DNA of 53,818 nucleotides, from contig JWZX01003404.1 in assembly GCA_001275005.1 (NCBI GenBank), positions 1 to 53,818 of the forward strand, written 5' to 3'. Position numbers and translations under genes: made by a program. The notes below the pieces were generated by a model. The model was not told the DNA's origin. It saw only the letters and a program-made list of their open reading frames with translations, and did not search any database. The first letter of the stretch is position 1; every line of letters starts with the position of its first letter. Positions 1 through 53,818 of this stretch are shown piece by piece. The DNA comes from Chrysochromulina tobinii. Its lineage: Eukaryota.

Positions 1-3000
1 GGACCAGCGCCTTCATGAACAGCATTTCACAGGCGCCGCCGCGGGCGTGGCCGCCGCCGCGGCCGCCGCCGCTGCGGCTGCCCGTTACGGCGCGCCAGTC
101 GCTCCGTACTATGCGACTCCGGGCACCCGCCCGCTCGACGTCCCCGTCTCCGTCCCCGACTTCCCCACAGCCGGCGGCGGTGCGTACAACGGCAACGGCT
201 ATGGCAACGGCTATGGCAACGCCAACGGCTATGGCAACGGCAACGGCTATGGCAACGGCAACGGCTATGGCAACGGCAACGGCTATGGCAACGGCTATGG
301 CAACGGCTATGGCAACGGCTATGGCAACGCCAACGGCTATGGCGCTGGCCCGCCGGGCTATGGCGCCGCTGACAGCGGCGCGGCTGGCGGCGCCGCCGTT
401 GGCGGCGGCTCGCCGCCCCTCCCGGGCGGTCGCGTCGTCCCGGGCGGTCGCGTCGAGCGAAGCCTGTCGCAGGCGTTGCAGGCGTCGTATCAGGCGCGTT
501 GATTGCCTCTGATTGCCTCTGATCGCCTCTGATTGCCTCTGATCGCCTCTGATCGCCTCTGATGGCCTCTGATCGCCTCTGATTGCCTCTGATCGCCTCT
601 GATCGCCTCTGATCGCCTCTGATGGCCTCTGATCGCCTCTGATGGCCTCTGATCGCCTCTGATGGCCTCTGATCGCCTCTGATTGCCTCTGATCGCCTCT
701 GATCGCCTCTGATTGCCTCTGATCGCCTCTGATCGCCTCTGATCGCCTCTGATTGCCTCGACCACACCCTCCTCAGGTACGTGCCCAGCTGGCGCATCAT
801 GCTACCGCTCCTCGTTGGCTACGCGGCCGGGCTCGTGTTGTACGTCGGGTTCGTCATTCAGCTCGCGTGCTGCTCGTCGCTGCTCCACGAGCTCACGTGC
901 CTCGCGCGCTCGGATCCCTTTGGAAGTGACGAGATGCGCCGAGCCGCGTACGGCGCTCCTACCGAAGGCGTGGACGACGAGAGCTGGCCTCTGCCCGACT
1001 TCGATGGCTCCGAGGCCATGCAGGTTCGAAACCACTCTCTCCTCTGATTGCCTCTGATTGCCTCTGATTGCCTCTGATTGCCTCTGCCCGACTTCGATGG
1101 CTCCGAGGCCATGCAGGTGCGAAACCACTCTCTCCTCTGATTGCCTCTGATTGCCTCTGATTGCCTCTGATTGCCTCTCCCCGACTTTGATGGCTCCGAG
1201 GCCATGCAGGTGCGCCCACCACGGCGCTCAGAGGGCCACTCCACGAGAGCCCCTGAAAGGACACTCCTTCCCTCGCCTGCATGCGCCCACCACGGCGCTC
1301 CCCCCTGAAAGGACACTCCTTCCCTCGCCTGCACGCGCCCACCACGGCGCTCGCCCCCCCCCCCGCGCGCAGATGTCGGGGCGTTCTCTGGTGCCTCCCG
1401 AGGAGAAGCTGCTCAGTCAGATGCTCGAGGCGGTCACACAACGGCTCGTCCCTCCGGTGCTCGTGCAGCAGTCGTCGACCCTCTACTCGCGCATGGGGCC
1501 GCTCGCGATGTTTGAGCGCTGGGGCCAGTGGGCATTGCAGAGCGCCCAGGACGGCGCCACGCCAACGCTCAGCGGCTCGGCGACGCCGTCGGACGCGCCC
1601 AGGACGACGGCGACAGCGTTGACGTCGCGCGCCGAGGGCGCCGCGTCGGGCGCCGTCGCCGCCGTCGCGGGCGCCTTGGCCGCCGCTTCGGGCGCCATCG
1701 CTGCCGCGGCCGCGCGCGTGGTCGAGAAGACAAGCTTCGATCTGCACGACGAGACGGAGCGCTCAGCGCAGCGCTCGACGCCCAGCTCGGCGCGGTCGCC
1801 CGCCGCCCTGGGCGCGAGTGCTCACCACGGCACCTTGGGCACGAGTGCGCGCTCCACCTCGCGGCGCCGTGGTGAGCACTCCGCCTCGCGGCGCCGTGGT
1901 GAGCACTCTGCCTCGAGGCTCGCGGCCTCAGCCAGCAAGGCTCCCTTCGATGGCGTCACGTCGGCCCTCTCCTCGTGTTTTCTCAACGGCCCGTGGGCGT
2001 ACTCGCCCGAGGCAGACAATCTGCGCTGGGCGCTCCGGTATGCCGATCGAGATGCCGATTGGATTGCATGCTGATTGCATCCTGATTGCATCCTGATTGC
2101 ATCCTGATTGCATGGGAGGACCTCTCGCTGGGCGCGAGAGCTCACGCCGATCTCGAGCCGATCTCGAGCCGATCTCGAGCCGATCTCGAGCACGAGGGCC
2201 TCGGCAAGTGCTCACCACAGCATGCAAGTGCTCACCACGGCGCGACCGCGTCGCTCTGCCCAGGTACGCCGATCTCGAGCACGAGATCGAGAGCTGGGTG
2301 CGCGAGCAGCGCATGCGCCAGTGGGTTCGGCAGCACCAGCGGCTCGAGCGCCAGTACTGGGAGCGGCAGCAGCAGCGCCACCTCTCCTTCGAGCGGCTCG
2401 TGGCCTCGGCTGCACCGCCACGCCGGCGATCGCACGCCAGCGTCACTGAGTCGGCTGACCACGTGGACGTGGATGCCGCGATCAGGCAGGCGGGCGCGGA
2501 GGCGGTGGCGGCACGTGACGCGACGGCCGCGGCGGCGGACCGTTCCGAAGCGGCGCTCCAGCGAGCGGCCCTGGCCGCCACTTCGGGCGACACGGCAGGT
2601 GCGCGCCTGGCGGCCTTGGAGGCGGACGCAGCCGCTGACGAGGCCACGCAGGCTGTGGCGAGAGCGCAGTCGGAAGCTGCGTTGGTGGCTGCGATGGGGA
2701 ACGCGGCGCGCGCCCAAGCCAACGCCTCTCGAGCGCAGTCGATTGCAGCGTCGGCCGAGACCGGCTTCTTGATTGGAGAGCCCAGTGCTGCCTCCAATCT
2801 CGGCTCTAATCTCGGCTCTAATCTCGGCTCTAATCTCGGCTCTAATCTCGCCTCCAATCGGGTCTCGGCACTCCCACCGTGGCCGGCCTTGCCGCCCATG
2901 CCGGAGGTGGACCGTTGCGTACCGGTACTTCCCGACGACATCCGGCGCAAGTTGCAGCTGCTGCTCGCCCTCAAGTTTCGTCTGAGCCTCGCCGCAGCGG

Positions 3001-3511: not shown

Positions 3512-3643
3512 CCGACGAAACTGAGGCACTGCAGCCGACGAAACTGAGGCACTGCAGCCGACGAAACTGAGGCACTGCAGCCGACGAAACTGAGGCACTG
3601 CAGCCGACGAAACTGAGGCACTGCAGCCGACGAAACTGAGGCA
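3512..3643. repeat. 23-bp minisatellite CCGACGAAACTGAGGCACTGCAG, 5 full copies plus a partial
   Basis: Perfect tandem copies at 3512, 3535, 3558, 3581 and 3604, partial at 3627; no spacers. Confidence 0.95.
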
Positions 3644-4029: not shown

Positions 4030-5979
4030 TCACCGCCGGCTCGAGGGCGGTATGAGCGCCTCAGGGATGGTTGTCGGGAGCGGCTCGCCGCGCTTCGTCT
4101 TCATGGTGAGGTGCATGGCGACTGCGAACCAGTCGGCGTCGAGCAGCCCATCCTCGTTCACGTCCACCAGGTTCCAGATGTCGCGCAGCACAGCCTGGTC
4201 GAGCCCCGAACGCTTGAGCACGGGCGCCACCTTGCTGCCGCCCACCTTGCCGTCCTCGGGCAGCATCTGCTCGAAGATCGAGTCGTACTTGGTCTTCTCC
4301 GCGCTCGTGACCGCCCAAGGGGTGGACACCGCCATCCGGGATAACGCCACCGTGGGCGGCGGCGGCACGGGCGCCGGCGGAGCGGCGGCAGTGGTCGGTC
4401 GGCCAAAGAGACCGTCGACCATGCCCGCCGTGTCGGCGGGGCGCGCGGGGGGTGCAGCGGGCGCCGTCGCCCACGGATCCCTCGGCGCCATCGTGGGCGC
4501 GGACGGCACAGCGACGGGGGACGAGCTCCAAGGGTCACTCGGCGGCGCCGAGGGTGGAGGCATCACCGAGTGCTCCGGCGCCGCGTGCTCCTGTGGCTTG
4601 GGCTGCCACGTGGACTGTGCGGGCTGCCCTTTGGGCTCCGGCTGTCGCATACCCCCGCTCGGGACCGCGGGGGTGGCGGCTGGGACGGCCTCAAAGGCGG
4701 ACATGAGGTTGCCGATGTGATCGCGGATGATCGTGTCGAGCTGCCCCAAGAGCTTGTCATCCAGCTTCTTGAACTTGGTGAAGTCGCGGCAATACTCGTT
4801 CGTGGCGAGGATGTGCCGAAACTTGGCCACGTCGGGGAAGTCGCCGGGTGGGATTGCGTGTGCCCGTGACACTTTGAAGAAGATATCCTCGAGCCCGGCG
4901 ATGAGCTCCTTCTGCTTTTTGTCCTTGCCCATCATCACCTGACATGAGGAAGGCAATCAGAGGCAATCAGAAACCGTCAGAGGCCATCAGAGGCCATCAG
5001 AGGCCAACATAGACCGCTTGCCCATCCTCACCTTCCTCGTCTCGGAGCGCAACTCGTCCAACACGAGCGCCTGGCAGCGCACCATGCGTGTGCGGTACAC
5101 GAGGTCGTTGAGCTTGTTCGTCGTGTTGTTGCGCGGCAGCGAGGCGAGGTCGTTCAGCAGCGCCGTCGTCTCGGTCTCGAACAGCTCCATCATGTAGCTC
5201 GGCCGCAGCGGCTGGTCCCAAAACGAGCCCACGTAGATGCGCCGCGTCTCTGCACCCTTGAGGATGCGCGCGAGGTTCCACGTGAGCGCCGAATTGATCT
5301 TGAGCAGCTCGTGCGGCTCGAGCGAGTCGGCCTTGTTGAGGATGACGCGGATCTTGTCATCGTAGCCCTCGAGGTGCCGGATCACGTCGGCGAGCTCGTC
5401 GGGAATGTCGACCTTGTTCGCGTCGAACATGAGCAGGATCATGTCGCAGCGAGGCGCGAACCACTTGATCACGTCGTAGTACGAGTACTGCCGGTCCTCG
5501 GTCTGCTTCCTCCCGGCGAGCACGCCCGGCGTGTCGACCAGAGTGCACCCCATGGCAAAGTCCGAGGGCACCTCGCAGCCGTACAGGCGCGAGAGGAACG
5601 TGTTGCCAAACTTGGTCAGCTCCGCAAACGGCGACAATGGGTTTGAGATGAGCGCGTGGCCCGGGATCTCGCGCTCGCTGTGGCCAAACATGATCGCCTG
5701 AAAACGGTCGGTCGTCGGCTCCGGGCCGATGTGGGCGCCTGGGTAATCCCGGTCTAGCAGGTACTTGATGAAGGTGGTTTTTCCGACCGAGTAGGATCCG
5801 ATGAGCAGCACCATCGGCTTCGCATCAAAGTCCTGGTCGGTGAGCATCGGGTAGTGGAACTGGTTCACAAGGTACTGCTCCTCGAGCGGGCGTACCATGT
5901 CGCGGTAGATGGCCTTGACGCCCGAGACGATGTCATCGTATCCGGAGGCATCAAACTTAGGCCGACGGCGACGCCCCAT
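4030..5979 (-). CDS. EHD: EH-domain-containing dynamin-like ATPase (EHD/RME-1 family)
   Basis: Exons 5979..5032 and 4938..4030 (phase-0 GT-AG intron 5031..4939). Motifs: KPMVLLIGSYSVGKTT P-loop, IGPEPTTDRF, DTPG, LNKAD, YVGSFW, IPPGDFP. C-terminal EH domain WAVT..KYDSIF..SGL..LRDIWNLVD..FAVAMHL. Confidence 0.95.
4939..5031 (-). other. 93-bp GT-AG intron with CTGAT(G/T)GCCT repeats and a duplicated exon start
   Basis: The intron begins GTGAGGATGGGCAAG and the next exon begins GTGATGATGGGCAAG. It ends GATTGCCTTCCTCATGTCAG. Confidence 0.85.
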
Positions 5980-44485: not shown

Positions 44486-45080
44486 CATGTGATTCACCCC
44501 AACAGGCGGCGTACAGCCGTATGCCCGGATTGCCGTACACGCAACACGGTCGGAAGGCGAGGGGGGTACCCAGGCATACTATATAGCATGTACGGTGTTC
44601 AGCAGTCGAGTCGGTTGGAGCTGATGAAATTTATCAGTCAACGCTCGCCCACGGCTCAAAAGCAGGGTCATCCGCTGTGAGGCAGGGGCGCGCGGTCGCG
44701 CACGCCGCCGAGAGTGCCACTTGAGTGTCTTAACGTGACTGTCCGCCTTCTGACCCCTAATAACACGCGCGAGAGCACTGTCCCCTAATCAACACGCGCG
44801 GGTCAATCGTGCTGGAGACGGGATCGATTCGTGTATCGTGAGATTTTGTGTGGAGTGTGGCGTTATCAACTCATCTTGGGACGGACCGAAGGCCACACGT
44901 ACGTGGCCCAAGGCGGCGCACTTAGTGGACGCGGGAGCGCGCGACCGCGAGGACGTAGCAATGCACCTCCGAGCGGCCCTACTCCCGTACCTCACCCCGT
45001 CCCTCACCCTTCTCCCACCGGAACCGAAGAAGTTGCATCATGTTCACGGTGAAGAACAGGCTTCAGTCCCATCCGAAGGC

Positions 45081-48000
45081 ATGCTTTTTTGGTTCGCCTG
45101 TACCATCCTGCCTTCACTGGCCACTACCACGGCGTGCACGCGGACGGAACGCGCATGGCTGCAGCACTGCGCGGTGGCCGACGACTGCACCTCCGAGGCT
45201 TCCTTCTGTAGCTGCTGCGGTGCGTACCCAAATACCGAGTACGCAGATGCTTGCGAGGTGATCTGCGGCATGAGAGTGGTGCACGCTCGCAGCAGGTCCG
45301 CCGCAGCGGCACACAGCTCGTGGGACTTTGAAGATTTTGGTGACAGATCGTCGACCTCCGTTCGCGAGCGAGGGCCCACGTTCGAGCAACCAGCGCTGTC
45401 GCTCATCGGCGATGCGGCCGTCGTTCTTGGCGACTGCTACAACTTGGACGTGCGCGCCCGTGCGACTGCTGACACGCACGCCGAAATTGTCGCGGGCGAA
45501 GACGGTCAGGAGGCATGCCTCATACCGCCCGTGACGCCACGCCTCTTCTCGACGGACGCGCACCTCGCCCTCAACCTGAGCGTCTGCCCGTCGCGGGTGG
45601 CACCATTCCACGTGCACGACCCGCAGCCTGCCGCGCTCGCCGCCATGCTATGCTTCGACGAGTGCCGTGTGCGCAACACGACGCAGCGAACCGCCCCACC
45701 ACCCGTGGTGGACTACGACGCGTTGCGCATCGCCAACTGCGCGCGGCAGTGCTTTGTTTCGTGCGTAGTACCAGCTGCCGCCCAGTGCGCCGCCGACTGC
45801 GGTGCGGCTAACTACACCTGCTTCGCCACGTGCCATCGCGAGGCGACCACGTGCTCGGTGCCGATGGGCCAGCGTGATGTGCGCTACTTTCGCGCCGACC
45901 CTAACGCGCCGGTGTGCACGGACGAGCATGACCGGTATCGGCAGTGCGTCATTGAGTGCAATGGGCAGTGCCACGAGGAGCTCGCAAGGAGTCAGCGGAC
46001 GGTTCACGATGACGTCAGAGACTGGTACCACCAGACATGCTCGGCGCCACTCGGTCGGAGTGCCGTGCTCGCGCCGAGCTGCGTGCTCGACTGCGAGACC
46101 CGCTGCCAGAGCTTCTGTAACCAGACCGTGACCGCTATCCTCGGGCCTGAGCTCGGCCTCGGCCTTCACCTGCGCAACTGCACGCGCAACTGCAGCGCGA
46201 ACTGCGACGGGGAGTGCTTTGTCGAGGACGCGTATGACGGATACGAGGTGGGCTGCCGGCCGTCGCCAGTGTTCAACTGCACTGAGGGGTGCTACACCAC
46301 CCAATGCCCAGCGCAGCCCACCTTTTGCTCTGTGTACGATACGCTCGGGGCCCTGAGGGCGGTGGACCTGAACTGCACCTTCCTCACGACGAAGAACGTC
46401 ACCTTCGAAGATACTTGGTCGAACATGTCCGTGTCGATTGGCGCTCAGCTGGCTGACCCGTCCTCGGCGTTGTCCCAGTACATCGGGCTGGACGGCAATA
46501 CGCACATCTGTTACAACGAGTGCACCGACACCACGACGGGCACCGAGCTCTTCTTTCACGCCGCCCGTGCAAGCCTGACCGCCGCCGCTGCCTCCATCGA
46601 GATCGGCCGAAACTGCACGACGCGCTGCTACGAGCGCACGTGCCTCGACAGCTGTACATTCGAATGCACTCTCGAGGCGGCGCGTCGACTGCTGCCGCCG
46701 TGTGTGCGTGGACCCAATTGCATCTCGCCCACGAACTGCTCTCTCGCCGAGTCGAGCAACTGCTCGGCTTTTAGGGCATTCGAACCGGTACTGATCAACA
46801 TCACGGCGGTCACTATGAATGTGACGGTCTGGGTGCCGCCGTGGACGCAGGACGTGTGTGAGGATCGAGTGGGCCAGAGCGTCGATAGCTTCCGCGCGTG
46901 CTACCAGCGCTGCCCCATTCACTGCGCGAGCGCTTGCCCGTTGCCTGTGAACCACACGACGCGGCTGCGGAACGGGTCGCTGTACAACGACACCTCGGGC
47001 GCATGCCTTGCCCAGTGCCACTACGAGTGCGCGCATAACTGCTCGCTCAGCATGATCGACGACGTGACGAGCACGTGGTGTGTGCCTCCGCTCGAGCCGA
47101 TCACACGGTGCGTGCCTCCGGTCAATTGCACCGACGATTGCTACGACGAGTGCCTCGACCCCACGCTCCTGCTTGCAACGGATCCCCAGTGCGAGGAGTT
47201 CCGGTACGGCTTCCGGCCGGACGGCTCGAATCACACGGTCATCTCGATCCCATATGCATACAATGTCTCCTCGCCGGCCGCGTGCGCGCGTAACGAGACG
47301 CCTTGCTCGGACGCGAACATCTTCTACAACATGACGACGTTCGCGCGTGACGTGCTCGTGTCCAAGGGGTGTGTGCAACGGTGCGCCGCTCGCTGCGTGG
47401 CGCGATGCTTCGACCGTTACTGCGTCACGCGCCTCGAGGAACCTGTGAATGAGACGGCCATCTGTTTGCCGCGTTGCCTGGATCGCTTCTTCGAGGCATC
47501 GGAGGACGACGACGCGTCAGTCGACGGGGGCGCGGCCAACGCCACCACGCCCAACGTGACCGCCTGTCAGTTGAGCTGTCACGCGGAATGCATCGTCGGC
47601 CGTTCGTCCAATTGCTCGGCGCTGTGCGAGTCGTACTTTGACCCGACGCTCTGGGGCTTGTGTCTCGGTAACTGCTACGCTAACGCGAGCGTCAGTTGCC
47701 ACCGCGACTGCGTGTACGGGTGCACCTCCAATCACACGCTCGCCTATGGCTTCGCAGCGCCCTACAATGCCTCGGGCGACTACTTCACTGCGGCGGCGTT
47801 GGTGCAGATTGCGCATGAAGATGCGCTCGTGCACGCGGCAAGCTGGAGCAATGCCGCCGCGAGTTGCTACAACAACTGCACGAGCCTTTGTGCGATTCGT
47901 TGTTTCGAGGAAGTCGTGTCCTCAGGGTTGTGTGCCCAGGAGGTGACGAATCTGACCAGCGCTCGTGCGGCCCGGGGCATGGCGCCGCTGCACCCTCAGG

Positions 48001-51000
48001 TGGTCGCCGAGGCGTCGAACAACTGCACGCTGCGCCGCTCGGCGACGTGCCTCGACGGCTGTCAGCACGAGTGCCACCAACGCTGCACCAACCTGACCGA
48101 TCCGATCCGTTACGACCTGATTCAAGCTGCTGAGTACGCCGAGCTTTACGCGACGTACGTGGAGCACTGCGAGAGCCGCTGCCGCATCCAGATCTACGGG
48201 CCCAACACGACCGATGACTCCTGCCTCGCGTTCACCAACGTGACGACCTATCGGCAGGAATGCCTCTTCAACTGCACAGACAGGGTGCGCCGAGGTATCT
48301 GCGCCAACCCGAACATCACTGTGGACGTGGGCATCCACTGCAACGCCACCGAACGATGCGGTGACCTCCACGTGCTGGTACAGCAGGCAGCGGCGACACC
48401 GAATGCCTCCGCCAGCATTGCCGCTCCTTATCATCAATGCATGCAGAGCTGCTCGGGCAATTTCACGCTTGATCCGCAGTACGTTTGCGACGGCGGCGTG
48501 TCACGTTTGATGGCGATCGACGCTGCGAGTGCGTACCAATTGCAGGCCGTCGGCGGGCTTGGCCAGCAGGGCACTACACCTGCCGAGCAGCTCGAGATGG
48601 ATCGACTGTGGGCGGCGGTCCCCATGGGCGAGATGTGCACCTTCGTCGACCTCGAATGCGTGGTCAACCACACGCTCCACTGCGCCTCGGAGTGCGCCAA
48701 CCAGGTCGCATTCTACTATGAGCTGTGTGTGGCGCGCTTCTTGCGCCGCAACGCCACGTTCGATTACAACATCTCGTCATGCTACCACCCCGACGGCTGG
48801 CGTGTGGGGACAGAGAGGTGGCGCTACTACGCGGCGCTCAATGCAAGCCGGCCCGAGGCGCAGCCGAGCTACTGGTTGGCACCCAATATGGGTCCGCCTG
48901 TGTGGACGTACAACGACGTGCCCAACGCGACGGTGCTCAACTGCTCGTGTCACTTTCTCAATGAGACGTTTGATCCGAACTTTGTGGCCGCGCTCCTCGA
49001 GTGGCGCATGCGTCCGTATCAAAACCACTACATCTCCACGTGCCTCTGCCTCTTCAACACAAGCGCTGGCGAGCCGCAGCACTGCATCCATGATCCCTCA
49101 GAGTTCGTCAACGTGCCGAGCATCTTTGACTGGGTCTTTGGCAAGGGGAGCGGCGGCTACGATGAGGACGTTGACCACGTGGCCACGCAGGCAGATGAGC
49201 TCGTGACCTGTGGCTCGCCGTGTGTGTCGCATTGCTCCGCGCACTGCGGCGTCTACTTTGTTGAGCATGTGACGCCGTCGACCAACGGCGGCTCGGCGTT
49301 CTTGCCGCGATTCAATGAGACATTTCGCTTCTCGGACTATCCCGCCTCGCTCACGAACTGGGTGGTGAGCAACGGCCAGGGCGGCAGCATGGTCACCCCG
49401 GGCCATTGGCGATCACCGCCTGGGTGCTTCCAGCCGTGCATGGCCACTTGTGCCGTGGCCAACTGCACCGATGGCTGCGGTGCCGGGTGCGCGCCGGGGC
49501 CCGAACCGGAGTACGATAACTCGACTGCGCTCGACTTTGGGTGTGAATGGAACTCGACAGTGGACGAAGGCCGGCCCCTTTGCTACCAGTTCTGCGGCTG
49601 CTACGAGCAGTGTGCCTCGCGATGCGTCGCCGAGCTGCCCAGAATGAACACGAGCACCCTGATGCTCGAGCGCTTCCCAGTTTGCATCGACAACTGCTCG
49701 AGCACGTGCGAGGATGAGCATCACGCACGGTGCGTCAACATCTCCGCCATGCTTGCCGCCTCGCGCATCCCGCCGTACGTCAACCAGACGCAGGTGTGCC
49801 TCAACAGCATCTTCCCCACATGCTCGTTGCACTGCCTCGGGATCTCGATACGCAACGTGACGAATACCAGCGGCGCGCTCTTCGTGCCGTCGAAGCTCCC
49901 CCGTGAGCTCCTCTCGCTCAACCTCAGTGCGGGCTTGGGCCATCTCCGAGGAGTGCGTGGGCCTCCAGAGGGGTACACGTTTGGCGAGGAGGCGTACGAA
50001 GGGTACACCTGCCGGATCGACCCGTGCGATGACCTCTGATCACACCTCCTCTGATCCTCTGATGATGCCTAATTGCCTTCTTCATTAGGTACGCCTGTCG
50101 GATCGAGCCGTGCGATGAGGTGCTAGTCACAACGTCCTTCACGCTCCTCGGCGTGACGACGACGACCTCCACAGCCGTCCTCAGGACTCCTAGTGGATTG
50201 CCATGTAATCAGACGTCGCTTCAGCTTGGCGAACGAGTCCTGACCGACCCATCCTCGGGCAACACGTCGATCGTGCCAATCCTGATCAACGTCTCGACCG
50301 CTACGCTCGAGGGCTGCCACGAGAACCGTTCGTCGGCTTGCCTCTCCACGTGCAACGACTTCGGCTACAAGGTCTGCTTCCCCGACGTCGACCCGTTTGA
50401 CCTGTGCGTGCAGAGCTGCATCGCCAACCTCACGTACTTCGAGACGTACGAGTTCGACCACACGCTCTCTGTGTGTAAGAAGAAGCTGCGGCTCACGCCC
50501 TCGCAGCCGAGCCGACGCGGCGCCGCGTGGTATCGACGCAAGCAGCATGTGCGAGAGGGCTTCCGCACGAGCTTCGCATTCCGACTTGAACACCCGAGCC
50601 GCCGCTGCCCCGACGTGGCGCATCCTTCTTTCGAAGAGCAGCCCGAGGGCCTCCGCAATCTCCTCTGTTCGGGGCGCGGGGGCGACGGCTTCGCGTTTGT
50701 GATCCAAGACGCGGGCGCCACGTCCTTTGATCCGCATTGCGCGTACGCGGCCGTAGACCAGTGCAACGGATTGGCGGCGGCGCAGTGCACGGAGCAGTGC
50801 CGTAGCCAATGTCCAAATCGGGTCGCAGCGGAGCACACCAGTTGTGCAGCAGCGTGCCTCAAAGGGGACTCGTACACCATGCCACCGGTCGCTGCCCTCG
50901 GCTCGGCCGTCGAGCGCGCGGCGTACGCGGCGGCCGCCGCCGCGGCGGCTGGCGCGTGTAGCGCATCTGTCGTGCAGTGCGTCGCCAGCGCATGCGGCGG

Positions 51001-52732
51001 GCGCGAGGTCGAATTCTTCTCGGGTGCTGCCATGCAGCCCGGTGGTTGCTTGCGCGACTGCCTGGACGCGGGATCACGCACGTTCTGTGAGGCTCGCTGC
51101 CCTCTGGTGGATGAGGACGTGGACGACGATTGCGTGAGCGCTTGTGCCAACGAGCGTCTCGCCGACTCCACTGAGTGCTTCCGAGGATGCAATTCGAGCT
51201 GTGCAAGCCAGGGGTTACTCGAGCAAGCAATGTGCGCGGAGGACTGCTTGGGTGGCGCCGCGCTGCTGGCGAGCGGCGAACCAGTCGGCCGCTGCCGTGC
51301 CAAGGTTCAAGCCTTCCCGACCCACGAAACCGCAACCTGCCTCACCTCTTGCTCTCACACGGACCACGAATGCCTGCGTGCATGCCTCGAAACGCCCGAG
51401 GGGCTACTTCCCAACTGCGTGGGCGCATGCCCGCAGAACAATACGCGCTGCGTCCTCGAGTGCATGCGTGGGTTCGGGCAGCGTGGTAGTGAGTGCGTCA
51501 GCCCGCGAGTGCTCGAGTGCAACTACACGAGCTCGGCACTTGGCGACGGCGCTGCAGGCATCGGCTACGCCAACCTGCGTAACACGCTCGCGATCAAGTT
51601 TGACACGTGGTACAATGCAGAGCGCTCGGACCCGTGGGTAAGCCACGTGGCCGTACACTCTGGGGGAGAAGACTATGGTGCGCCGTCGGACACGAGCGCC
51701 GCACTCGCGATCACCTCTGACTTCCCCGACATTGCGGACCAGAAGTACCACGAGGTGATCATCGAGTACGTACCGCGCTTTGAGACGGACGGGAATCTCG
51801 CAGGGATGAGCATCACGCCGGGCATCGCTGCGCGCCTGACGACGGCTCAGCGCGGCAATATGCTCTACGTCGACACCCTGAAGGTGACCCTCGATGACGC
51901 CGTCATCCTTCGCGTGCCGCTCAACCTCGAGACTCTTCTACGTCTGGACCAAGGGCGCGCGTACGTTGGTTTCACGGGCGCCACAGGCTCCGCGTACCAG
52001 GAGCATTCGATCCATGCGTGGCGATTCCAAGAGAGCGTTTCTGGCACCCTCGCCCACCCGGCCAACGAGCACTGCCGCCATCGTGTACCCTCGCTATGGC
52101 ACGGGAACGCCTACGATGGCGCGCCCGTGCTGCCCGCGAACGCGGCGCTCGCGTGCACGCCGGACGTAATGGATGTGACAACCCCACTCGGAGCGATGCA
52201 CTCGCTCCGATGCACTGAGGACGCGAGTGGCCACGTGTATTGCCTCGACCCGAACACGCCCAACAGCGCACCCATCATCTACGAGCCCATGCCCGACATC
52301 TCGGTACTCGTGGGCGAGCCTGTGAACATCACGCTGCACGACGGCTTCCGCGACCGCCAGAGTGACGGGCGGTACACATCAAATCTGCTCCGTTACTCAC
52401 TTATCTTCACGCCACACAATGAGGAGCCCCAGGATGGCATCGCTTGGGTACACTTCAACTCGTCGACGCGCCAGCTGCGCGGCATCCCAACGCATCCGGG
52501 CACTTGGCGAGTCAACATGACCGCTATCGATCCAGGCTTCCCTGACGCAGGCAGACCCACGACGTGGACAGACCCGCGCATGGCACCGATGAATACAACA
52601 GACGAGTTCCTCTTGCAGGTGCGCGTGCGACCGATCGACCCACTGGCGGCGGACTTCTGGGCGCCGACAGTGGAGCAACCCACTCCCACAGAAGCGGTAC
52701 CGAGAGTGTCTGCGTCGATAGCGCCGTACTAG
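45081..52732 (+). CDS. Giant secreted Cys-rich glycoprotein (~2,520 aa) with split legume-type (L-type) lectin domain and C-terminal cadherin/He_PIG-like Ig domain
   Basis: Exons 45081..50002 and 50089..52732 (phase-2 GT-AG intron). Signal-like MLFWFACTILPSLATTTA, many CxxxC repeats and NxS/T sequons. Lectin motifs LRLTP..GAAWY, GGDGFAFVIQ, LAIKFDTWYN, AYVGFTGATG..HSIHAWRF. Ig motif WVHFNSSTRQLRGIP..VNMTAID. Confidence 0.85.
50003..50088 (+). other. 86-bp GT-AG intron whose first 30 nt duplicate the next exon start
   Basis: GTACACCTGCCGGATCGACCCGTGCGATGA versus GTACGCCTGTCGGATCGAGCCGTGCGATGA (27/30). CTCTGAT filler. Ends AATTGCCTTCTTCATTAG. Confidence 0.85.
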
Positions 52733-52947: not shown

Positions 52948-53818
52948 CTAGACTCGCTGGTGCTCCTGGCCCTGCGGCAGAGCCCAGGGCTGATTCTCCT
53001 GTTTAGTGGCCTCATCCGAGCTTGCCACCGTCGACTGCGGCTCATCCGGCATCCCAGCCTTCTTGCGGCGCGACGTCTCCGGAGCATCCTTGCGAGGCGT
53101 TGCCAATGGTGCGTCAGGGTCGCGGCCCTTGAGTTCAGACAGCTTGAGGTCCGCTACGGGAAGTGTCAGCTTTACCACTGGCCCTGCGGCAGCGGACTCC
53201 GCGGCAAATGAGGGGGCGGCTGCCGCGGCAGAAGGCTTGGAACCGAACCCAAACATTCGACTGAGGCTGCCACGGGGCGAGGTTTCCGAGGCGGAAACGG
53301 GTGCGGGCGCGGGCATTTGCACGGGCGGCGGTGGCGGCGGCGGTGGCACAGCGGCAGCAGCGGCAGCAGCTGCCTCCTTCTTGTCCTTCGCTCCGCGCGC
53401 CGTGAGCGCGGCGACTCCCGTCGATGCCAACGCAGGCTTCGCGACCTCACGCTCGCGCGCAGTGAAATCGCGTGCAGAGCGCTGAGGCTCAGCCGCATCG
53501 CTCGTCGCTGCAATATCAAGCTTCGGCATCTCGATCTTCAATCCGCTCGGTGCTGGAGGATTCGTCTCGACTGCCGCTGGCTGCGAGTCCAGGTCCTGCA
53601 CAATAGTACCGTCAGGCTTCGGTGCTGCTGCAGCCCCTGCTGCTGCTGTGGGAGCAAGCGCCGCAGTCGACGATGGCTCGTCCGGCATCCCAGCCTTCTT
53701 GCGGCGCGACGTCTCCGGAGCATCCTTGCGAGGCGTTGCCATCGGCGCGTCAGGGTCGCGGCCCTTGAGCTCAGACAGCTTGTTGAGGCTCAATGCCGGC
53801 GGCGCCGCGCTCTCCCCC
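52948..53818 (-). CDS. Partial hypothetical low-complexity protein with an internal ~36-aa duplication
   Basis: KLSELKGRDPDAP(M/L)ATPRKDAPETSRRKKAGMPDEP occurs twice (~53675-53785 and ~53035-53145). The frame appears open to the window edge. Confidence 0.6.
   Translation of the reverse strand, partial: GESAAPPALSLNKLSELKGRDPDAPMATPRKDAPETSRRKKAGMPDEPSSTAALAPTAAAGAAAAPKPDGTIVQDLDSQPAAVETNPPAPSGLKIEMPKLDIAATSDAAEPQRSARDFTAREREVAKPALASTGVAALTARGAKDKKEAAAAAAAAVPPPPPPPPVQMPAPAPVSASETSPRGSLSRMFGFGSKPSAAAAAPSFAAESAAAGPVVKLTLPVADLKLSELKGRDPDAPLATPRKDAPETSRRKKAGMPDEPQSTVASSDEATKQENQPWALPQGQEHQRV

What the first reader, a model, noticed from the sequence alone, without database searches (positions are those of the whole stretch)
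50003..50118. Intron that looks born by duplication of the exon start, with AG-free filler (clearest member of a family)
Seen: the first 30 nt of this intron match the first 30 nt of the next exon at 27/30. One mismatch (GAG>GAC) and the base right after the match (TGAG>TGAC) remove AG dinucleotides from the intronic copy, leaving the terminal AG as the only one. The EHD intron (4939..5031; 14/15 match) and RING-gene intron 3 (2038..2263; GTATGCCGATC vs GTACGCCGATC) show the same boundary duplication. Established: tandem duplication at proto-splice sites and introner insertion with target duplication are proposed intron-gain mechanisms. Inference: a recent, repeated intron-creation process acts in this genome, with longer and more variable duplications than a fixed transposon TSD.
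Basis: partly seen in the sequence, partly recalled or inferred. Interest (0 to 1): 0.85.

Follow-up and report, generated by a model that had tools for sequence, protein, structure and literature searches.

The report
Repeat-filled introns with long target duplications
An 86-base intron in a freshwater alga begins with a 30-base copy of the next exon and ends in a repeat-rich module shared with another intron, and distant relatives lack it, so it was likely born when that module inserted and duplicated its landing site, an intron-making route with longer duplications than those of described intron transposons.

Summary
Confirmed: the intron is 50003-50088 (GT..AG). Its first 30 nt match the next exon at 27/30, far beyond chance. 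Two RNA contigs skip 86 nt here. The organism is Chrysochromulina tobinii by a tool label. Relatives at 36-64% protein identity lack the intron. All 15 own-lineage alleles seen carry the copy.

The anatomy is a 31-nt direct repeat around a 56-nt module of GAT(T/G)GCCTCT-like units that ends in an acceptor motif shared with the EHD intron. The donor comes from the repeat; the acceptor does not, so classic AG|GT tandem duplication fails. The 'AG removal' argument is weak.

Elsewhere, 16 of 50 such filler arrays have flanking direct repeats (null 7 of 2444). Many straddle existing splice sites, and one is polymorphic, so a boundary copy does not by itself prove intron birth.

Best reading (0.55): an introner-like insertion with a long, variable target duplication. 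The scan noted this pattern before on another piece of this genome (e1-2577349).

The parts
44961..50002 (+). Exon 1 of a 2,561-aa cysteine-rich protein with a C-terminal L-type lectin-like domain (start ATG inferred); ends ...GAAGG, with no AG before the donor
50003..50088 (+). The intron, 86 nt, GT..AG, phase 2; the only intron found in the gene
   Evidence: sequence and frame; RNA contigs skip 86 nt; DNA contig of run X5 spans it unbroken
50002..50032 (+). First copy of the 31-nt direct repeat; supplies the GT donor
50028..50032 (+). GATGA: last bases of the repeat and also the start of a filler unit (5-nt junction ambiguity, read as microhomology)
   Evidence: sequence; the reading is inference
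50033..50088 (+). 56-nt module: degenerate 10-mer filler with branch-like CTRAY motifs (4 in the intron), pyrimidine tract and acceptor; no terminal inverted repeat
50072..50088 (+). 3' end motif ATTGCCTYCYTCAT..YAG shared with the EHD intron
   Evidence: (2 copies in the window; the pattern was derived from them)
50088..50118 (+). Second copy of the repeat = start of exon 2 (G-Y-A-C-R-I-E-P-C-D-E); this is the copy present in RNA contigs
50089..52732 (+). Exon 2, to the stop codon
4939..5031 (-). EHD gene intron, 93 nt, same build: 17-nt direct repeat (5017-5033 vs 4924-4940, 16/17), filler, shared 3' motif
   Evidence: a public gene model splices it the same way (P0357)
2038..2263 (+). RING gene intron 3: 10/11 copy of the exon start, 11-mer filler, internal copies of the upstream exon (2126-2135) and downstream exon (2179-2196), different GC-rich 3' end; composite
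   Evidence: junction from frame continuity only
987..1372 (+). RING gene exon end plus intron 2 (1024-1372): three copies of a 42-nt exon-end-plus-donor block (987, 1080, 1173) separated by filler, in front of a GC-rich intron remainder
500..776 (+). RING gene intron 1: 26 copies of the 10-mer filler and an acceptor at 776; donor uncertain; next exon starts GT; no significant copy

Best explanation
The intron is a 31-nt direct repeat around a 56-nt repeat-rich module and is spliced out exactly, and it was likely born in one event in which that module inserted into the exon while the landing site was duplicated. Shown: the first copy of the repeat gives the GT donor, the module gives the acceptor and branch-like motifs, and the mRNA keeps only the exonic copy. 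Also shown: distant relatives have no intron here, and the module's end is shared with a second intron of the same build. Inferred: a staggered break or nick about 30 nt wide was filled on both sides around the incoming module, and the module joined the copy through a few matching bases. Inferred: such insertions survive in exons only when the repeat starts with GT or GC and the module ends in AG, or when they land across an existing splice site. The enzyme is not identified. A retro-element machinery copying intron RNA (target-primed reverse transcription) and templated-insertion break repair both fit variable repeat length, no terminal inverted repeats and junction microhomology.
For: Repeat and splicing. 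Absence in relatives: 5 of 7 homologue clusters read through the site in frame (P0002-P0005, P0007); 1 ends earlier and 1 is the own lineage. DNA loci L004-L006, L008 and L009/L010 are unbroken there, and L009 has an intron elsewhere, so it is genomic. The EHD site is unbroken in P0375 and P0376 on 18- and 23-kb contigs. No allele has the intron without the copy: 15 of 15 listed (of 81 members) for this intron, 14 of 14 unspliced ORFs listed (of 30) for EHD, 4 of 4 for the P0198 locus, one by frame-shifted reading. Shared 3' end. Exons after filler introns start like donors: GT in 4 of 5 filler introns vs 0 of 5 others (P=0.048), and 9 of 15 peptide-read acceptors are compatible with GT, 3 more with GC. 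Filler arrays elsewhere carry flanking direct repeats: 16 of 50 vs 7 of 2444. In RING intron 2 filler sits between 42-nt repeats in front of a filler-free remainder, as an insertion would leave it.
Against: No intron-less allele of the same species was seen, so the empty site is known only from relatives at 36-64% protein identity. By eye, only 2-3 of the peptide cases are exon-start copies; about 10 straddle an existing donor or acceptor. The P0186 locus is polymorphic for a copy across an existing acceptor, so secondary duplication happens. An acceptor-anchored test on peptides was uninformative (2 of 9 vs 2 of 36, one hit a filler artefact). Copy enrichment in filler vs other window introns is not significant (3 of 5 vs 0 of 5, P=0.17). 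The main and EHD modules share units and ends but are not near-identical copies. The peptide set comes from unnamed contigs, probably of several species, and is biased to long arrays.
Confidence: 0.55

Rival explanations
1. Secondary remodelling: the intron was gained earlier, for example as a short-TSD introner. Later, microhomology-driven slippage or unequal crossing-over copied the exon start into it, and the older 5' part was lost. The copy would then not date the birth.
For: P0186/P0370 carry old acceptor + exon copy + filler + new acceptor, while P0372 has only the old and P0371 only the new acceptor. RING intron 2 has a 93-nt, 99% tandem duplication, and RING intron 3 has internal copies of both flanking exons. 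Short-TSD introners are reported in marine Chrysochromulina MAGs (PMC9860276).
Against: It needs a second, precise step to leave exon|copy with no older intron in front. The main donor has only one G in common with the acceptor. No allele without the copy was seen at three exon-start loci (33 sequences).
Confidence: 0.27
2. An ordinary cut-and-paste introner with a fixed short TSD; the longer match is incidental or decayed.
For: Same geometry as described classes that carry the 3' site and recruit the 5' site from the TSD. Shared 3' end.
Against: Repeats are 31, 17 and 11 nt in the window and 15-38 nt in peptides, against the 3-9 nt described. There are no terminal inverted repeats (best 5 of 12 for both inserts). 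C. tobinii is listed among the screened genomes but the name occurs nowhere else in the held supplement.
Confidence: 0.08
3. Classic tandem genomic duplication of an exon segment containing AG|GT, with filler arising later inside the new intron.
For: The EHD repeat includes AG|GT (17 nt). The mechanism is established (PMC3443670 passages).
Against: In the main intron the upstream exon ends GG and the intron's last bases do not match it, so the acceptor is not duplicated sequence. Two unrelated genes share the same 3' end.
Confidence: 0.07
4. Chance similarity or an assembly artefact.
For: None beyond the small number of introns examined.
Against: Null 0 of 107,556. The intron stands in an unbroken DNA contig, in loci L001-L003, one of them a distinct allele, and in 15 listed ORFs.
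Confidence: 0.01

Closest known systems
Introner-like elements of Symbiodinium and Polarella glacialis, classes 4/5 and 6/8/10 (bioRxiv 10.1101/2020.10.14.339549, parts 1-2 of 4 read; PMC9860276 Fig. 2B, section 7 read)
   Same: The element carries the 3' splice site, the 5' site is recruited from the start of the target duplication, mRNA length is unchanged, and exon starts resemble donors.
   Different: Their TSDs are fixed at 4 or 8 nt (3-9 nt overall), and the Symbiodinium elements have inverted ends. Here the repeats are 11-31 nt or more and variable, there are no inverted ends, and the body is a degenerate 10-mer satellite.
Introners of marine Chrysochromulina MAGs (PMC9860276 Fig. 2C; supplement rows seen)
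   Same: Same genus label; TSD present, no TIRs.
   Different: The described example has a 4-bp TSD, carries the 5' site and co-opts the 3' site, the mirror of this case.
Intron gain by tandem genomic duplication (PMC3443670, passages)
   Same: Exon sequence is duplicated at the intron boundary and supplies a splice site.
   Different: It needs AGGT in the duplicate for both sites; here the acceptor comes from foreign filler.
[quoted passage not shown]
   Same: An insert between direct repeats at a staggered break.
   Different: Those repeats are described as short and the inserts as unrelated; here one recurring module is inserted in sense orientation.
Non-LTR retrotransposon insertions by target-primed reverse transcription (mechanism recalled; non-LTR introners are about 5% of classified cases, PMC12130899 passages)
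   Same: Variable target duplication, a fixed 3' end, a variable 5' end and junction microhomology.
   Different: No poly(A) tail, ORF or partner element is seen; membership is untested.

Membership tests
Spliceosomal intron | Removed from RNA at GT..AG, restoring the frame | tested here: met
   (derived from contig pieces and depth; joint row not displayed)
Introner (general) | Position absent in orthologues | tested here: met
   only relatives at 36-64% identity (about 72% for EHD)
Introner (general) | Multi-copy family of similar introns at unrelated sites | tested here: inconclusive
   Shared units and 3' end in two window introns and about 28 peptide-read acceptors, but no near-identical end-to-end copies shown; no genome held
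Introner (general) | Presence/absence polymorphism among close strains | tested here: inconclusive
   No empty allele among 15 of 81 and 14 of 30 listed members
TIR DNA-transposon introner | Fixed short TSD (3-9 nt) | tested here: not met
   31, 17 and 11 nt; 15-38 nt in peptides
TIR DNA-transposon introner | Terminal inverted repeats | tested here: not met
   Best 5 of 12 for both inserts; none at the ends
Tandem genomic duplication at a proto-splice site | Both splice sites come from a duplicated AG|GT | tested here: not met
   Upstream exon ends GG; no 3' match to the upstream exon. Met only for the EHD repeat
Non-LTR retro-element (SINE-like) insertion | Variable target duplication with fixed 3' end | tested here: inconclusive
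   Fits main and EHD; RING intron 2's filler lacks the 3' end
Non-LTR retro-element (SINE-like) insertion | Partner reverse transcriptase sharing the 3' end | not testable with these tools
   No genome held

The most novel reading that the evidence does not exclude
Haptophyte filler introns propagate themselves. Excised intron RNA, which ends exactly at the AG, is copied back into the genome by target-primed reverse transcription, giving 5'-truncated modules between long variable target duplications. Wherever the duplicate starts with GT or GC, a perfect new intron results. This would be intron transposition caught in the act, in a family that similarity-based introner screens miss because its body is a satellite.
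Probability: 0.2. Interest if true: 0.88.

Novelty: new variant of a known kind. Interest (0 to 1): 0.62.

Why it matters
Where new introns come from is a long-standing question, and most gained introns fit no known mechanism (PMC3443670 passages); about 72% of introner elements resist classification (PMC12130899 passages). Described introners leave 3-9 nt duplications. A route with 11-40 nt variable duplications and a satellite body would be a distinct chemistry. It is testable now, because a genome, RNA runs and many wild alleles exist. It also carries a warning: the same duplication lands across old splice sites, so boundary repeats alone overstate intron birth, and copied exon ends can mislead gene prediction.

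Tried and rejected
Read support for the EHD and RING junctions was not obtained, so those rest on frame continuity, homologues and one public gene model.

Filler patterns found 0 hits in viral contigs and 0 in genome contigs. The 3' motif gave 23 and 4 hits, all 27 without filler and taken as chance. Freshwater run X19 gave only short pieces and none at the junction. An annotation-free scan of the window and extra flanks returned 18 donor/acceptor pairs at 12/15 or better; only 4 were filler-rich and the rest look like chance or tandem repeats. The acceptor-anchored peptide test was too small. Looser peptide tests gave 35 of 149 vs 46 of 2216 and 29 of 115 vs 5 of 680 but include redundant and filler-variant hits, so one search is the one used.

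Rejected: selective AG purging, terminal inverted repeats and proto-splice duplication for the main intron. Ten literature searches listed no paper describing this pattern in haptophytes; I read passages or sections of six papers only. The library lacks most subscription papers, bioRxiv supplements are closed, and the PMC9860276 supplement was cut when stored, so a prior description is not excluded.

Full report
What is there. The window is eukaryotic, mostly 60-70% GC. A public gene model 90% or more like the window's EHD exon is labelled Chrysochromulina tobinii and lies on a contig of 53,818 nt, the window's length, so I take the window to be that haptophyte. No whole genome is held. The finding lies in a 2,561-codon gene (ATG 44961 inferred, stop 52732) for a cysteine-rich protein with a lectin-like domain. 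The intron is 50003-50088. Unspliced, the frame stops 11 codons after the donor; spliced, it runs on for 880 codons.

Observation. The first 30 nt match the next exon at 27/30. With the shared G the repeat is 31 nt at spacing 86. I set boundaries for 10 candidate introns in the window by frame continuity and scored each intron start against its own downstream exon and against all 107,556 window 40-mers. Main (27/30) and EHD (14/15) had no equal, RING intron 3 (10/11) had 38, and the other 7 had null fractions of 0.15 or more. None of 90 mismatched pairs reached the weakest of the three.

Splicing. In RNA runs X13 and X14 one contig each begins aligning at 50088, at record positions 448 and 188, with no differing letters, so it carries the exonic copy. 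The mean depths in the bin (6.57, 5.57) equal contig depth times (664-86)/664. A 16-kb DNA contig spans the intron; that run may be the source of the window. EHD and RING junctions lack read evidence here. The EHD splice matches the public model P0357.

The AG argument. One AG remains. But the second 'change' is the repeat/filler junction, shuffling gives no interior AG in 4.3% of cases, and 2-3 random substitutions hit the single AG 13-19% of the time. Only 2 of 5 filler introns are AG-free. The GAG>GAC change is in all 15 alleles listed, and E is the commonest residue in relatives, with no D, so the change happened in the intronic copy and early. In EHD the mismatch creates GTGAG, a better match to the donor consensus (recalled), in 14 of 14 alleles.

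Age. Five of 7 homologue clusters read through the site in frame, one ends earlier, and one is the own lineage. Members of two lie on 27- and 341-kb contigs. Of 10 DNA loci, 3 are the own species with the intron, 6 (three lineages) are unbroken at the site, and 1 does not reach it. L004-L006 may be transcript contigs; L009 has an 88-nt intron elsewhere, so it is genomic. None of the six has the filler. Allele L001 has the same intron with a 28/30 copy and 1.7% third-position divergence in exon 2. A form at 96% protein identity (P0001, P0011) also has the copy, with what reads as one more filler unit. The intron is therefore lineage-specific but older than the sampled alleles.

Anatomy. Upstream exon ...GAAGG, then the copy, then 56 nt of degenerate 10-mer units with branch-like CTRAY motifs (4 in the intron), ending ATTGCCTTCTTCATTAG. 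The EHD intron ends ATTGCCTTCCTCATGTCAG, and these are the only two such motifs in the window (the pattern was drawn from them). The acceptor is not duplicated exon, and there are no inverted ends. The window has two intron classes: five with filler and five GC-rich without it. All three copies are in the first class (3 of 5 vs 0 of 5, P=0.17), and exons start GT after 4 of 5 vs 0 of 5 (P=0.048).

Wider sample. The antisense strand of the filler has no stops, so database ORFs run through such introns. Two searches returned 31 proteins and 1,135, of which the best 150 were listed. Using those of 500 aa or less, with filler-free, non-redundant flanks (6 blocks dropped), 16 of 50 arrays had a flanking direct repeat at 16 bits or more, against 7 of 2,444 cross pairs. 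Two of the 16 share a locus and about three are doubtful; 13 of 47 still gives P=5e-19. Matched lengths were 15-38 nt. Before the antisense acceptor motif, 9 of 15 residues fit an exon starting GT and 3 fit GC (background 10%; one site probably false). In the other frame 13 of 14 fit G. By eye, P0198 and P0246 repeat the main geometry. P0186, P0194, P0242, P0302 and P0313 duplicate across an acceptor, and P0196, P0202, P0204, P0330 and P0339 across a donor. These are back-translations from unnamed contigs, probably of several species, so they show the pattern exists widely, not its rate in this genome. An acceptor-anchored test was uninformative.

Evidence that cuts against simple birth. RING intron 2 holds three copies of the upstream exon's end and donor, separated by filler. 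RING intron 3 holds internal copies of both flanking exons. In the P0186 cluster 2 of 5 members have two acceptors with an exon copy between, one has only the old acceptor, one only the new, and one is too short to tell. Duplication with filler thus also happens at existing boundaries. At the three exon-start loci with alleles, all 33 sequences seen carry the copy.

Mechanism. I favour one-step insertion of the module with a long target duplication (0.55) over later remodelling of an older intron (0.27), an ordinary short-TSD introner (0.08) and AG|GT tandem duplication (0.07). The repeat, the splicing, the absence in relatives and the shared end are shown; the event and the enzyme are inferred.

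Comparison. The geometry matches dinoflagellate classes that carry the 3' site and recruit the 5' site from a 4- or 8-nt TSD (bioRxiv 10.1101/2020.10.14.339549, parts 1-2 of 4; PMC9860276 section 7). Fixed short TSD and inverted ends are tested and not met, so it works like those elements but is not filed with them. C. tobinii is in that study's genome list, and the name appears only once in the held, truncated supplement, while many marine Chrysochromulina MAGs are listed with introners. Passages of the C. tobin genome paper mention only about one intron per gene (PMC4580454). Passages of PMC4028052 report frequent GC donors in Emiliania. That 10-11 bp repeats gather in Emiliania introns is recalled, and the search did not list that paper. 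Ten searches listed no description of this pattern (see Tried and rejected).

Earlier notes. An agent's note on another piece of this genome (e1-2577349) reports a 15-nt repeat-flanked intron and over a hundred related ones in lake metagenomes. I reached my reading before seeing it, did not check its count, and took from it the lead to the dinoflagellate preprint.

Verdict. New variant of a known kind; interest 0.62.

Noticed in passing
window 49968-49978 and 49998-50008: An 11-nt echo (10/11) 30 nt upstream of the donor; exon 1 has about 15 extra codons here compared with relatives, perhaps an older in-frame duplication at the same spot.
   Followed up: partly
window 4936-4938 (-): The spliced EHD protein has one more residue at the junction than most close homologues (ETRKVMMGK vs EMPKMTGK), so that gain may have added a codon; one homologue has the same length.
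   Followed up: partly
window 2204-2263: A second recurring intron 3' end (GCATGCAAGTGCTCACCACGGCG...) closes RING intron 3; its antisense translation recurs in several database peptides, suggesting another element family.
   Followed up: no
window 500-759, 1041-1178, 4951-5006, 50033-50063: The 10-mer filler lies on the sense strand of introns in each of these arrays; the unit contains a branch-like CTGAT and no AG.
   Followed up: partly
window 44961-52732: The host protein (7.4% Cys, weak L-type lectin match) had only 7 homologue clusters in the search, none named.
   Followed up: no
P0004 and P0006 clusters; L009:4801-4888: Relatives appear to have their own introns at other positions in the same gene, suggesting independent gains in several lineages.
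   Followed up: partly
window 38850 and 39761: RNA and DNA contigs show a one-base insertion and a one-base deletion against the window, probably assembly errors that break a reading frame.
   Followed up: no
window 53024-53818: The window's end is a multi-copy coding repeat; L002 and L003 continue with further copies.
   Followed up: no
window 3512-3643: A perfect 23-nt tandem repeat, 5.7 copies, just after the RING gene's stop.
   Followed up: no
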